DNA from: Octopus sinensis
Taxonomy: Eukaryota
NCBI RefSeq assembly: GCF_006345805.1
Contig: NW_021829533.1
Coordinates: 1-5,856, forward strand
Direction: 5' to 3'
DNA: 5,856 bases
A model generated the notes under the pieces. It made no database searches. It was not told the origin of the DNA and saw nothing but the letters and a program-made list of their open reading frames with translations. Position numbers and translations under genes: made by a program. Below, one piece after another: positions 534-5,140 of this stretch; the stretch's first letter is position 1; every line of letters begins with the position of its first letter.

Positions 534-948
534 GGCAGCAAGCTGGCAGAAACGTTAGCACGCCGGGCGAAATGCTTAGCGGTATTTCGTCTACTGTTAC
601 GTTCTGAGTTCAAATTCCGCCGAGGTCGACTTTGCCTTTCATCCTTTCGGGGTCGATAAATTAAGTACCAGTTACGCACTGGGGTCGATATAATCGACTT
701 AATCCGTTTGTCTGTCTTTGTTTGTCCTCTCTGTGTTTAGCCCCTTGTGGGTAGTAAAGAAATAGGTATTTCGTCTGCTGCTACGTTCTGAGTTCAAATT
801 CCGCCGAGGTCGACTTTGGCTTTCATCCTTTTGGGGTCGATAAATTAAGTACCAGTTACGCACTGGGGTCGATCTAATCGGTTTAATCCATTTGTCTGTC
901 CTTGTTTGTCCCCTCTATGTTTAGCCCCTTGTGGGCAATAAAGAAATA
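534..948 (+). mobile_element. tRNA-derived SINE family A with a tandem duplication of its 184-bp body (581-764 and 765-948); central block resembles the Deu/Nin SINE domain
   Basis: Pol III A-box-like TGGCAGAAACG at 544-554 and B-box-like GTTCAAATTC at 608-617. The two 184-bp units differ at 13 positions (manual count). The motif ggtcgactttgcctttcatcctttcggggtcgataaattaagtaccag resembles the Deu/Nin domain as I recall it (not searched). Several dispersed copies occur in the window. Confidence 0.92.
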
Positions 949-1040: not shown

Positions 1041-1229
1041 TTTAGCGTGCAATTTGACCCTAATCCCTAGCCCTAGCCCCAACCATAATCATGACCATAA
1101 ATCCTGAACCATAATCATAAAACCAAAACCTTAACCTTAACCCTAAGCTCTAACCTTAATCCTAATCCTGACCTGGCTCAGGTAATTTCACATCGTAGAC
1201 TACGGAAGCTTTAGTAACTGCATGCTAAA
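1041..1229. mobile_element. Possible old non-autonomous DNA element enclosing the telomere-like array
   Basis: Inverted repeat tttagcgtgcaatt (1041-1054) / aactgcatgctaaa (1216-1229), 12 of 14 positions matching. No convincing TSD. Confidence 0.45.
1057..1173 (+). repeat. Degenerate telomere-like (CCCTAA)n hexamer array
   Basis: ccctaatccctagccctagccccaaccataa...ccttaaccttaaccctaagctctaaccttaatcctaatcctga, about 6-bp period. Confidence 0.8.
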
Positions 1230-1412: not shown

Positions 1413-1841
1413 GGATCTTTTCGGTTTGAACGGCAGTTTTTAAAAATAATTTCCACGTAACTATAAACACTTTTAAACTTCGTATACTGGTAGAATGTGT
1501 TTATAAAACATCTTTTTCTCTTGGCTTTATTTAGAAAATTCTATAGTTTGTAAGATATTTGTTGTTGTTTTTTTTTCTTCAATTTCTGCAATTTCAACCA
1601 ATCAATGACGTCTATTGAGGTGAAAACATTCTGTACCGTATGAATATGTCCCTCGTTTAAGGAACAGATTGGGTTTATTTACATTTGTGAAGAAAAAGAG
1701 ATACTCTTTCCCCCACCCCTAACCCTAGCCCTAATCCTAAAACAGATTGAAATGCAATAGATCGATATTAGGGTCATAATTATGGGTGACAATTTCATAT
1801 GACACCGCTAGAAAAAACTGCCGTTCAAACCGAAAAGATCC
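1413..1841. mobile_element. MITE (non-autonomous DNA transposon), 429 bp, 29-bp perfect TIRs, 8-bp TSD; superfamily uncertain (GG..CC ends with an 8-9 bp TSD suggest Merlin or Mutator-like rather than typical hAT)
   Basis: TIR GGATCTTTTCGGTTTGAACGGCAGTTTTT at 1413-1441 and its exact reverse complement at 1813-1841. Direct repeat CACAATAA at 1405-1412 and 1842-1849. AT-rich interior with no ORF. Confidence 0.95.
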
Positions 1842-3077: not shown

Positions 3078-3082
3078 TATAT

Positions 3083-3134
<52 letters not shown>
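3078..3134. repeat. (TA)n microsatellite
   Basis: Seen directly. Confidence 0.98.
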
Positions 3135-3135
<1 letters not shown>

Positions 3136-3232
3136 CGGGAAGCTTTATGAAAATAAACAAAAGACGAAGGCAGGTGGAAAACAAACGAACAATTGTATTA
3201 GTATGGCGCTCAGGAAATATAAATAAAACAAG

Positions 3233-3270
3233 TCTTTAACGTTTCGAGCCTACGCTCTTCAACAGAAAGA
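3233..3270 (-). ncRNA. Minimal type I hammerhead ribozyme-like motif (variant core)
   Basis: Minus-strand RNA: UCUUU [stem I] CUGUUGA A GAGC-GUAG-GCUC [stem II] GAAA CG UU^ AAAGA [stem I']. The palindromic ACGU replaces stem III, and the putative cleavage triplet is GUU. One deviation from CUGANGA (A6 to U). Confidence 0.72.
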
Positions 3271-3439
3271 TACACAGAGAGAGAAAAACACAGAAAGGAG
3301 AGAAAAAAAATGCGTGCAGTAGCTAACGAATCAACATGGCGATCTGATTTCGGCCAGAGGTCAAAGATCAAACATGAGACGCGAGAGCGAAATAAGGGGA
3401 GATAATAGGGTTGATAAAAGGGTTGAGGGACCAGCTAAA

Positions 3440-3785
3440 AGTGCGTGGGAGGGGTCTGGATGTGTGTATGTATAGGGTTGGTGTATGTATTAGTATGTAT
3501 AAGGGTGTGTGTGTGTGTGTGTGTGTGTGTATGAGAGAGTATTAGTGCGTAAGATTGGTCTGGACGTGCGTATGTATGGGGTTGGTGTATGTATTAGTAT
3601 GTATTAGTATGTATTAGTACGTATTGGTATGTATAGGTGTGTGTGTGTGTGTGTGTGAGAGAGAGTATAAGTACGTATGCGGGGTCTGGACGTGTGTATG
3701 TATAGGGTTGGTGTAAGTATTAGTATGTACTGGTATGTATTAGTACGTATTAGTATGTATTAGTTGGTGTGTGTATTAGTATGGC
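3440..3785. repeat. Hierarchical minisatellite: three ~104-126 bp units with nested 10-bp (GTATGTATTA)n and (GT)n
   Basis: Anchor ggtctgga(c/t)gtg(t/c)gtatgtat(a/g)gggttggtgta at 3453, 3557 and 3683. Confidence 0.9.
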
Positions 3786-3825
3786 ACATCATATGTGATG
3801 TGATGTGTAAAGTCATGTGGTGTAG

Positions 3826-4090
3826 TGAGGAGAAGAGGGGGAGGGGGAGAAGAGGGGGGAGAGAAGGCGAGGGGGAGGAGAAGGGGGAAGAGGAGAGGAT
3901 GGGGGAGAAGGAAGGGGAGGAGGGGGATGAAGGAGGAAAGAGGGAGAGGGGGAGAGAGGGAGTGGGGAGCAGAGGGAAGGGGAAGAGGGAGGGAGAAAGA
4001 GGGAAGAAGGGAAGGGGAGTAGGGGTGAAAGGATGAAGGACTGAAGAAGTAGGGGTCGGGGGGAGAAAGGATAGGTGAGGAGGGGGAGAG
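3826..4090 (+). repeat. Polypurine G/A tract with many G4-G6 runs (G-quadruplex/triplex potential)
   Basis: About 265 nt, almost all purine on the + strand. Explains the G/E/R- and P/S/L-rich ORFs. Confidence 0.9.
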
Positions 4091-4122
4091 TTGAGACCAA
4101 ATGGCGTATAAGAGCGAAGAGA

Positions 4123-4124
<2 letters not shown>

Positions 4125-4162
<38 letters not shown>
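4125..4162. repeat. (TA)n microsatellite
   Basis: Seen directly. Confidence 0.98.
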
Positions 4163-4164
<2 letters not shown>

Positions 4165-4165
4165 A

Positions 4166-4476
4166 GGCGCAATGGCCCAGTGGTTAGGGCAGCGGACTCG
4201 CGGTCGTAGGATCGCGGTTTCGATTCCCAGACCGGGCGTTGTGAGTGTCTATTGTGCGAAAACACCTAAAAGCTCCGCGACGCTCCGGCAAGGGGAGGTG
4301 GCGATCCCTGCTGTACTCTTTCGCCACAACTTTCTCTCTCATTCTTTCTTCTGTTGGCCTGCTCGCTTAGCCAGCGGGGTGGCGTCGTTCAAAGGCTAAA
4401 ACAGTGCGAATCGCATTGTGACCAGCGATGTGTAGCCACATCTGATAGCCTGGTCGGTCACGGTGATCATGGTGAT
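4166..4476 (+). mobile_element. tRNA-derived SINE family B, apparently full length
   Basis: A box TGGCCCAGTGG at 4173-4183, D-stem GCCC/GGGC, and B box GGTTTCGATTCC at 4216-4227. A non-tRNA body follows and ends in a 9-bp tandem tail, cacggtgat catggtgat (4459-4476). TA repeats on both flanks. Confidence 0.85.
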
Positions 4477-4490
4477 ATATACATATATAT

Positions 4491-4690
4491 CGGGCGAAAT
4501 GCTTAGCGGTATTTCGTCAGTCGCTACGTTCTGAGTTCAAATTCCGCCGAGGTCGACTTTACCTTTTATCCTTTCGGGGTGGGTCGATAAATAAAGTACC
4601 AGTTTCGCACTGGGGTCGATGTAATCGACTTAATTCCTTTGTCTGTCCTTGTTTGTCCCCTCTATGTTTAGCCCCTTGTGGGCAATAAAG

Positions 4691-4695
<5 letters not shown>
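4491..4695 (+). mobile_element. 5'-truncated SINE family A copy (monomer)
   Basis: Near-identical to 564-764 and 765-948. Lacks the A box and has a 4-nt gggt duplication near 4577-4584. Confidence 0.93.
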
Positions 4696-4724: not shown

Positions 4725-4726
<2 letters not shown>

Positions 4727-4727
<1 letters not shown>

Positions 4728-5140
4728 GCGCAGGAGTGGCTGTGTGGTAAGTAGCTTGTTTACCAACCACATGGTCCCGGATTCAGTCCCACTGCGTGGT
4801 ACCTTGGGCAAGTGTCTTCTACTATAGCCTCGGGCCGCCGAAAGCCTTGTGAGTGGATTTGGTAGACGGAAACTGAAAGAAGCCTGTCGTATATATGTAT
4901 ATATGTATTATGTTGTGTGTGTGTTTGTGTGTCTGTGTTTGTCCCCCTAGCATTGCTTGACAACCGATGCTGGTGTGTTACGTCCCGTCACTTAGCGGTT
5001 CGGCAAAAAGAGACCGATTAGAATAAGTACTGGGCTTACAAAAAAGAATAAGTCCCGGGGTCGAGTTGCTCGATTAAAGGCGGTGCTCCAGCATGGCCGC
5101 AGTCAAATGACTGAAACAAGTAAAAGAGTAAAAGAGAGTA
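4727..5140 (+). mobile_element. tRNA-derived SINE family C with a CORE-like motif, internal (TA)/(TG) microsatellite and stem-loop plus tandem-repeat tail
   Basis: A box TGGCTGTGTGG at 4737-4747 and degenerate B box GATTCAGTCCC at 4780-4790. Acceptor-stem-like pairing GCGCAG/CTGCGT. accttgggcaagt (4801-4813) resembles the start of the MIR/CORE domain. Terminal hairpin cagtc-aaat-gactg at 5100-5113 and tail (AGTAAAAG)2 at 5119-5134. Confidence 0.85.

What the first reader, a model, noticed from the sequence alone, without database searches (positions are those of the whole stretch)
3135..4124. Ribozyme-bearing non-coding mobile unit built mostly from simple-sequence modules
Seen, reading the minus strand 5' to 3': a pyrimidine-rich start, a ~265-nt C/U tract, a three-unit minisatellite, a unique segment, the hammerhead, and a U-rich end. 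The whole unit is bracketed by (TA)n, with no ORF, tRNA head or TIR. Inference: a non-autonomous retroelement mobilised by a Penelope-like RT/GIY-YIG partner that targets (TA)n. Only one ribozyme is present, whereas described retrozymes generally have two or occur in tandem arrays, so this may be a poorly described class.
Basis: partly seen in the sequence, partly recalled or inferred. Interest (0 to 1): 0.75.

Follow-up and report, generated by a model that had tools for sequence, protein, structure and literature searches.

The report
Truncated Neptune retroelement tail with hammerhead
This 990-base piece begins with codons matching the end of a Penelope-like jumping gene's endonuclease and ends with that family's small hammerhead motif, so it is most likely an ordinary front-truncated copy rather than a new non-coding element; its one oddity is a changed letter in the ribozyme core.

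Summary
It is not purely non-coding. Its first 35 bases (minus strand, 4124-4090) read in frame as (I)FSLRSYTPFGLN, the conserved C-terminal motif of the GIY-YIG endonuclease of Neptune-type Penelope-like elements (PLEs). A profile from 110 other PLE proteins scores this best of 6679 window positions (22.0 bits, next 2.8; 0 of 200 null windows reach it). Downstream lie a long simple-repeat 3' region, a minimal type I hammerhead and a 103-nt tail ending in (TA)n. Contig depth falls from the 3' end towards the 5' end, and shorter copies start at several internal points next to (TA)n. Best reading: a dead 5'-truncated copy of a Neptune-type PLE inserted into (TA)n, a known kind of debris in which single hammerheads are the rule. 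Not shown: the full-length parent, and whether 4124 is a recurrent boundary. Residual interest: the core is CUGUUGA (A6U), apparently shared by relatives, whereas 118 of 120 matches to this scaffold in other animals keep A6.

The parts
4125..4162 (.). (TA)n target tract at the element's 5' junction (minus-strand reading); ATAT at 4128-4125 fits both the tract and the Ile-Phe codons of the motif (possible microhomology, inferred)
4090..4124 (-). Last conserved codons of a Neptune-type GIY-YIG endonuclease, (I)FSLRSYTPFGLN, including the terminal conserved Asn; the 5' truncation point
   Evidence: clade comparison in Fig. S2 of PMC8557442
3826..4089 (-). C/U tract starting right after the Asn codon; the frame stays open to a stop at 3762-3760 (109 further codons, Pro/Ser-rich), but all three minus frames are open here, so openness is compositional
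3453..3785 (-). 126-nt minisatellite (2.3 copies, 3483-3774; anchors at 3690, 3564, 3460) built from (CA)n and a 10-mer that also occurs in the 3' tail (14-nt identity 3772-3785 / 3194-3207)
3271..3452 (-). Non-repetitive 3' UTR / pseudo-LTR segment, with a U/C-rich stretch (3312-3272) just before the ribozyme
   Evidence: multi-copy
3233..3270 (-). Minimal type I hammerhead motif: stem I 3270-3266/3237-3233 (5 bp), core CUGUUGA 3265-3259 (A6U), extra A at 3258, stem II 3257-3254/3249-3246 (4 bp, G10.1-C11.1), GAAAC-GU-U 3245-3238 with palindromic AACGUU; predicted cut between 3238 and 3237
3135..3232 (-). U-rich 3' tail; family 3' end at 3135 abuts (TA)n
   Evidence: in raw-read run X24, 42 reads cover 3122 (13 nt into the TA run) against 45 at 3148
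3078..3134 (.). (TA)n target tract at the 3' junction

Best explanation
The unit is likely a dead, 5'-truncated copy of an autonomous Neptune-type Penelope-like retroelement: it keeps codons matching the last dozen residues of the endonuclease, a simple-repeat-laden 3' untranslated region, a minimal hammerhead motif and a 3' end in (TA)n. Inferred mechanism, from the known PLE family: the parent's C-terminal GIY-YIG endonuclease nicks a (TA)n tract, its reverse transcriptase primes there and copies the RNA from the fixed 3' end, and synthesis stopped after about 990 nt, just inside the end of the ORF, where ATAT could anneal to the other side of the TA target. The single hammerhead is the one every 3' pseudo-LTR carries; with a 2-bp palindromic stem III it would work, if at all, only as a dimer in a tandem transcript, and U6 would weaken it further. 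Shown: anatomy, motif match, multi-copy status, 3'-polar depth, TA at the 3' end of relatives. Inferred: the parent, its clade, the priming mechanism, any cleavage.
For: Motif at the 5' junction, on the hammerhead strand: 22.0 bits versus 2.8 for the next of 6679 positions, 0 of 200 nulls (110 of 152 proteins used, chosen by a motif regex). With alignment-chosen rows (124 of 152): 22.2 bits, 0 of 300; using only the 11 codons wholly inside the element 16.9 bits, next 2.7, 1 of 300. In Fig. S2 of PMC8557442 the W-x-x-x-L-x-T-x-x-P-x-G-L-N ending is seen in Neptune, Naiad and some Chlamys rows, not in the Penelope/Poseidon, Nematis, Hydra or Terminon rows; Naiad and Chlamys carry the endonuclease at the N-terminus and mostly lack hammerheads, which leaves Neptune. 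The same hammerhead scaffold occurs in 119 metagenome loci; 7 of 119 match PLE proteins, all 7 on the hammerhead strand, 6 ending 77-676 nt upstream of it (two of these supplied the query proteins). Summed contig depth in run X2 falls from 2.0-5.1 million over 3115-3289 to 0.56-0.92 million in the non-masked unique parts of the body and 0.32 million at 4060-4094; contigs join TA runs to the element at 3191, 3201, 3262, 3276 and 3297. 5' truncation, microsatellite bias and single dispersed min-HHRs are described for PLEs.
Against: The peptide match is only 11-13 residues, was noticed by eye before the test, scores near the 5th percentile of the training set, and is not significant with a 143-column HMM (E 0.49). 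Adding the nine residues after the Asn lowers the score to 9.1 bits (4 of 300 nulls), and there is no stop 9 codons on, where 77 of the training proteins end. No protein carrying this peptide was found among 215-2000 aa or 67-214 aa proteins, so the parent ORF is not in hand. The 5'-most 50 nt are still well covered in X2, which a fixed-boundary subfamily would also give, and the junction itself was probably masked as a repeat. The 825 nt from motif to hammerhead is longer than the 77-676 nt seen.
Confidence: 0.8

Rival explanations
1. A discrete non-autonomous subfamily: a once-truncated Neptune copy (or internal-deletion product) with a fixed start near 4124 that is itself transcribed and re-copied in trans by an intact partner. 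This is the first reader's idea, but as a derivative of the autonomous element's own 3' end.
For: All parts, including 4060-4110, are multi-copy, and body depth in X2 is a rough plateau of 0.56-0.92 million from 3360 to 4059 outside masked or low-complexity bins. No parent protein found. Non-autonomous PLE derivatives sharing 3' ends with autonomous families are described for Chlamys.
Against: Depth drops about 2.4-fold from 4025-4059 to 4060-4094 rather than staying level; shorter copies start at many points; no promoter-like head or tRNA; no upstream pseudo-LTR or second hammerhead; no head-to-tail joint among the 15 of 30 joints shown.
Confidence: 0.13
2. A monomer of a non-LTR retrozyme that moves through a hammerhead-processed circular RNA.
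For: A type I hammerhead motif is present; a run guessed to be RNA (X11) holds contigs over the whole unit, though it is not shown to be RNA; retrozyme monomers occur and retrozymes are proposed to derive from PLE pseudo-LTRs.
Against: Described animal retrozymes are 170-400 nt, highly self-paired tandem units with canonical hammerheads. This unit is 990 nt, its ribozyme is of the minimal PLE type, its 3' region folds no better than shuffles (z +1.23), it carries endonuclease codons, and no tandem of the unit was seen.
Confidence: 0.03
3. A chimera: a short PLE 3' fragment (3135 to about 3330) lying next to unrelated simple repeats, with the peptide match at 4124-4090 being chance.
For: The 3' 200 nt are several-fold deeper than the body in X2 and occur without the body in X24; hundreds of contigs leave the reference at 3230, 3269 and 3278. 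No listed record spans the unit.
Against: The non-repetitive segments 3330-3460, 3780-3825 and 4020-4108 are all deeply covered with overlapping contigs; 20 runs hold 0.63-0.88 of the sampled words, including runs of only 29-30 million letters; the motif sits exactly at the junction on the right strand.
Confidence: 0.04

Closest known systems
Neptune clade of Penelope-like elements (C-terminal GIY-YIG endonuclease; PMC8557442)
   Same: Endonuclease C-terminal motif of the Neptune type followed by 3' UTR, hammerhead and 3' end on one strand; microsatellite target; 5' truncation.
   Different: Much longer, simple-repeat-rich stretch between motif and hammerhead (825 nt); no stop 9 codons after the Asn; RT, CxxCxxC linker and CCHH motif are absent from this copy and could not be tested.
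Minimal hammerheads (min-HHR) in metazoan PLE pseudo-LTRs (Cervera and De la Pena 2014, PMC4209133)
   Same: [quoted passage not shown]
   Different: U at position 6 instead of A; helix II is 4 bp rather than the 7-8 bp reported for Schistosoma.
Hydra clade PLEs, e.g. Hydra-1_Obim of Octopus bimaculoides (PMC8557442 supplement)
   Same: (TA)n target; hammerhead about 100 nt from the 3' end.
   Different: Hydra hammerheads have a longer stem III and a different sequence, and Hydra endonucleases end in LNK without the P-x-G motif.
Non-LTR retrozymes of animals (PMC7229834; bioRxiv 10.64898/2026.07.22.740005)
   Same: Type I hammerhead, no intact ORF, PLE connection.
   Different: Retrozymes are 170-400 nt tandem, self-paired units; this is a 990-nt single unit with coding remnant and minimal ribozyme.

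Membership tests
Neptune-type EN+ PLE | GIY-YIG endonuclease at the C-terminus of the ORF, ending in W-I-x-x-L-x-T-x-x-P-x-G-L-N | tested here: met
   last 11-13 residues only; the nine residues after the Asn do not fit well
Neptune-type EN+ PLE | RT domain grouping with Neptune; CX2-5CxxC linker and CCHH motif | not testable with these tools
   not present in this copy; no genome held; parent protein not found
Neptune-type EN+ PLE | Minimal type I hammerhead in the 3' pseudo-LTR, sense to the ORF | tested here: met
   architecture met; core deviates at position 6
Neptune-type EN+ PLE | Fixed 3' end with variable 5' truncation | tested here: met
   depth gradient and TA joints at 3191-3297 in X2; reads run from the 3' end into TA in X24; contig depth is a rough measure
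Neptune-type EN+ PLE | Partial tandem or inverted pseudo-LTR in full insertions | tested here: inconclusive
   none in the window; a 78-nt tandem step 3326 to 3249 in 26 reads of X24; 15 of 30 joints hidden
Hammerhead ribozyme (canonical core) | C3 U4 G5 A6 N7 G8 A9 ... G12 A13 A14 A15.1, U16.1 H17 | tested here: not met
   position 6 is U; all other core positions match; Rfam no match
Hammerhead ribozyme (canonical core) | Self-cleavage | not testable with these tools
   needs in vitro transcription of monomer and dimer
Non-LTR retrozyme | 170-400 nt unit in tandem repeats, each with a hammerhead | tested here: not met
   990 nt, one motif, no tandem in the window; definition
Non-LTR retrozyme | Abundant circular RNA | not testable with these tools
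   no holder on record as RNA; contigs cannot show circles
Hydra clade PLE | Endonuclease ending in LNK and hammerhead with extended stem III | tested here: not met
Naiad PLE | N-terminal endonuclease followed by RT; no canonical hammerhead | tested here: not met
   the motif is followed by non-coding repeats, a hammerhead and the 3' end; definition

The most novel reading that the evidence does not exclude
A lineage of very abundant Neptune-type elements has fixed a hammerhead core change (A6U) expected to cripple cleavage while keeping the rest of the fold across several families, so the motif is kept for a non-cleaving or factor-assisted role; and the 990-nt unit may be a self-propagating non-autonomous subfamily born from a truncation at the endonuclease's last codons.
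Probability: 0.2. Interest if true: 0.45.

Novelty: new member of a known kind. Interest (0 to 1): 0.2.

Why it matters
As a truncated PLE copy it is ordinary repeat debris; its use is to correct the annotation (a hidden endonuclease remnant marks the 5' junction) and to point to a very abundant Neptune-type family with an unusually long simple-repeat 3' region. If the A6U core is fixed in a successful family, it would be a natural test of the open question of whether PLE hammerheads need to cleave at all (PMC8557442 calls their function unclear).

Tried and rejected
No whole genome is held, so the two ends could not be searched genome-wide. Rfam, whole window and 3130-3460, gave no hammerhead; its miRNA-type hits are all below gathering score and fall on simple repeats. 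Free folding does not give the hammerhead shape or a significant z-score; an unconstrained two-copy cofold did not give the dimeric hammerhead either. Protein searches with the first 40 residues of the junction peptide found nothing; shorter proteins were not searched. The hammerhead pattern found 0 matches in viral contigs and the U6 pattern 0 in prokaryote genomes; blastn of the element against the 119 metagenome loci matched only the hammerhead itself (best E 0.002), so none is the same family. No RNA holder listed. Runs X23 and X24 carry the same species label as the best holder but gave only 29 and 176 reads of about 12.9 million each; X23 matched only purine-rich stretches and was not used. 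The open frame through the C/U tract was rejected as evidence of a translated tail because all three frames are open. Hydra-1_Obim was considered as partner because of its (TA)n target and rejected on hammerhead and endonuclease ending. Look-ups of earlier findings by sequence, place and relatives returned nothing. Lunse et al. 2017 on PLE hammerhead variants is not held and may already describe position-6 variants.

Full report
Observation. (TA)n tracts lie at 3078-3134 and 4125-4162 and a 126-nt minisatellite of 2.3 copies at 3483-3774, with three anchor words at 3690, 3564 and 3460. The tract 3826-4090 is 265 nt, 94% pyrimidine on minus. The last 98 nt are 48% U. No tRNA gene was found. One hammerhead-like motif lies at 3270-3233: 5-bp stem I, core CUGUUGA, an extra A, 4-bp stem II, GAAAC-GU-U with the palindrome AACGUU. 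With a relaxed core, 1 of 500 resampled windows gave any hit and 0 of 500 one this strict. The core has U at position 6; a canonical scan, Rfam and free folding (z -1.06) do not recover it. There is no second motif in the window.

The start of the unit is coding. The minus-strand frame that runs out of the left (TA)n reads IFSLRSYTPFGLN at 4128-4090; the Ile codon and the first base of Phe lie in the TA tract. I noticed this by eye and then tested it. A PLE protein from metagenome locus L024 (RT by Pfam, E 5e-8; CxxCxxC linker and GIY-YIG-type end) was used to fetch 150 relatives. A 13-column profile from 110 of the 152 proteins (chosen by a motif regex) scored this site 22.0 bits, the best of 6679 positions, next 2.8; 0 of 200 resampled windows reached it. 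With rows chosen by alignment (124 of 152) the result was 22.2 bits and 0 of 300; with only the 11 codons wholly inside the element 16.9 bits, next 2.7, 1 of 300. Against this: a 143-column HMM gave E 0.49; the score is near the 5th percentile of the training rows; adding the nine residues after the Asn lowered the score to 9.1 bits, 4 of 300, although F-L falls at the positions where 68 of 120 training rows have F-L; and 77 of the aligned proteins stop nine residues after the Asn whereas this frame stays open for 109 codons. That openness is compositional, since all three minus frames are open through the tract. Searches for proteins holding this peptide found none.

Clade. In Fig. S2 of Craig et al. 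2021 (PMC8557442; supplement part 55) this ending is seen in Neptune, Naiad and some Chlamys rows, for example WIFRLRTEHPQ-GLNE in Neptune-1_Ac, and not in the Penelope/Poseidon, Nematis, Hydra or Terminon rows. Naiad and Chlamys have N-terminal endonucleases and mostly no hammerhead (passages; section 6). Here the motif is followed by non-coding sequence, a hammerhead and the 3' end, which leaves Neptune. Hydra elements target (TA)n (section 11), but their hammerheads, including that of Hydra-1_Obim, have longer stems III (supplement part 2).

The hammerhead scaffold is a PLE scaffold. Of the 119 loci (71 have at least 400 nt upstream), 7 match the PLE protein set, all on the hammerhead strand, 6 ending 77-676 nt upstream of the motif; L024 and L078 supplied the queries, so four are independent of them and two of those four look like one sequence. 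None of the loci belongs to this family. Cervera and De la Pena (PMC4209133, parts 1-2 of 4 read) describe the same traits: short helix I, an extra nucleotide after position 9, G10.1-C11.1, palindromic 15.2-16.2, activity only as dimers and low, and mostly single dispersed motifs related to truncated PLEs. A single ribozyme is therefore expected and does not point to a new class.

Copy number and polarity. Of 24 listed runs, 20 from 10 studies and five organism labels hold 0.63-0.88 of 97 sampled words, two of them with only 29-30 million letters. I laid 4 of the 24 on 3115-4145 at 85% likeness. In X2, 20,817 contigs were laid. Summed depth is 2.0-5.1 million over 3115-3289, about 1.4-1.5 million to 3359, 0.56-0.92 million in the non-masked unique parts of the body and at 3990-4059, 0.32 million at 4060-4094 and 0.12 million at 4095-4129; X11 (RNA only by guess) shows the same trend. 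The tool states that this depth is not a copy number. As a hand estimate only: joint-bearing single contigs sit near depth 40, and overlapping contigs can count a base up to 31 times, giving roughly 450-23,000 copies of the body. Contigs join TA runs to the element at 3191, 3201, 3262, 3276 and 3297, as shorter 5'-truncated copies would. In raw reads of X24, 42 reads cover 3122 against 45 at 3148, so the 3' end runs into (TA)n; about half of these share one flank, so they are not all independent. Loose ends at 3230, 3269 and 3278 (336, 252 and 138 contigs in X2, low agreement) show that other families share the hammerhead with different flanks. Limits: no listed record spans the unit; 15 of 30 joints, 21 of 61 variant rows and 392 of 411 loose-end rows were hidden; 35 of the 164 skipped letters are unlisted and are probably at 4111-4145, so the 5' junction could not be read in other copies. 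X24 lacked the body and X23 gave only 29 purine-rich matches.

The U6 core. No variant row at 3262 is among the 40 shown. For X24, with 62-63 reads at 3255-3257, all four A-to-T places counted are shown elsewhere, so canonical A6 is below 5% there; for X2 and X11 one A-to-T place each is hidden. U6 therefore looks shared by relatives, but this rests on an absence. Perreault et al. (PMC3088659, passages) report a natural A6C variant with kobs under 0.1 per minute. I did not find A6U hammerheads in two searches or in the supplement search; Lunse et al. 2017, which deals with PLE hammerhead variants, is not held and may cover it.

Mechanism. Most likely (0.8) the parent's endonuclease nicked a (TA)n tract, its RT copied the RNA from the 3' end and stopped about 990 nt in, just inside the ORF end, where ATAT fits both target and element; microhomology 5' junctions are reported for a rotifer Penelope (PMC3846280, passages). 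These steps are inferred from the family; only the anatomy and distribution are shown. A fixed-boundary non-autonomous subfamily remains at 0.13; retrozyme (PMC7229834 passages; bioRxiv 2026.07.22.740005 part 1 of 5 and passages) and chance chimera are unlikely.

Host and prior knowledge. The flanking SINE-like repeats look to me like octopus SINEs; this is recalled and untested (one search gave only a listing). If so, PLEs are already known to be abundant there: 190 families, 6.83% of the Octopus vulgaris assembly, 31 recently active (PMC13282606, part 1 of 3 and supplement search); that repeat library was not visible to me and may contain this family. Other papers seen as passages only: PMC6765202, PMC6155905, PMC12602865, PMC6962438. 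Earlier scan notes on other genomes reached similar readings; they are unchecked and not support.

Verdict. New member of a known kind; interest 0.2.

Noticed in passing
window 1413-1841: Non-autonomous DNA transposon: 29-nt identical terminal inverted repeats starting GG, flanked by an 8-bp direct repeat (1405-1412 and 1842-1849). GG start and 8-bp duplication recall Merlin elements (label recalled, untested).
   Followed up: partly
window 581-948, 4512-4695, inverted partial copies 41-103 and 345-470: A SINE-like repeat family; a 184-nt part is duplicated head to tail at 581-948 (92% match).
   Followed up: no
window 4163-4480 and 4726-5137: Two further repeats with tRNA-like heads, each starting right at a (TA)n tract; the window is a (TA)n insertion hot spot. 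They resemble octopus SINEs (recalled).
   Followed up: no
window 3194-3207 and 3772-3785: A 14-nt word of the element's 3' tail is repeated at the border of the minisatellite, whose 10-mer subunit is the same word; the minisatellite may have grown from a copy of the tail by template jumping.
   Followed up: partly
window 3249-3326 (run X24): 26 raw reads step back 78 nt, a tandem duplication that includes the 5' half of the hammerhead in a related family.
   Followed up: no
window 3195-3232: Loose-end sequences of related families keep a similar word about 25 nt downstream of the hammerhead, and many vertebrate-like loci have a GAGC word at a similar distance; possibly a conserved pseudo-LTR signal, not tested.
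   Followed up: no
L044:604-689: Two copies of the hammerhead scaffold head to head on opposite strands, the inverted pseudo-LTR arrangement typical of PLEs.
   Followed up: no
window 1058-1173 and 1710-1740: Degenerate CCCTAA-type (telomere-like) runs, one inside the inverted-repeat element.
   Followed up: no
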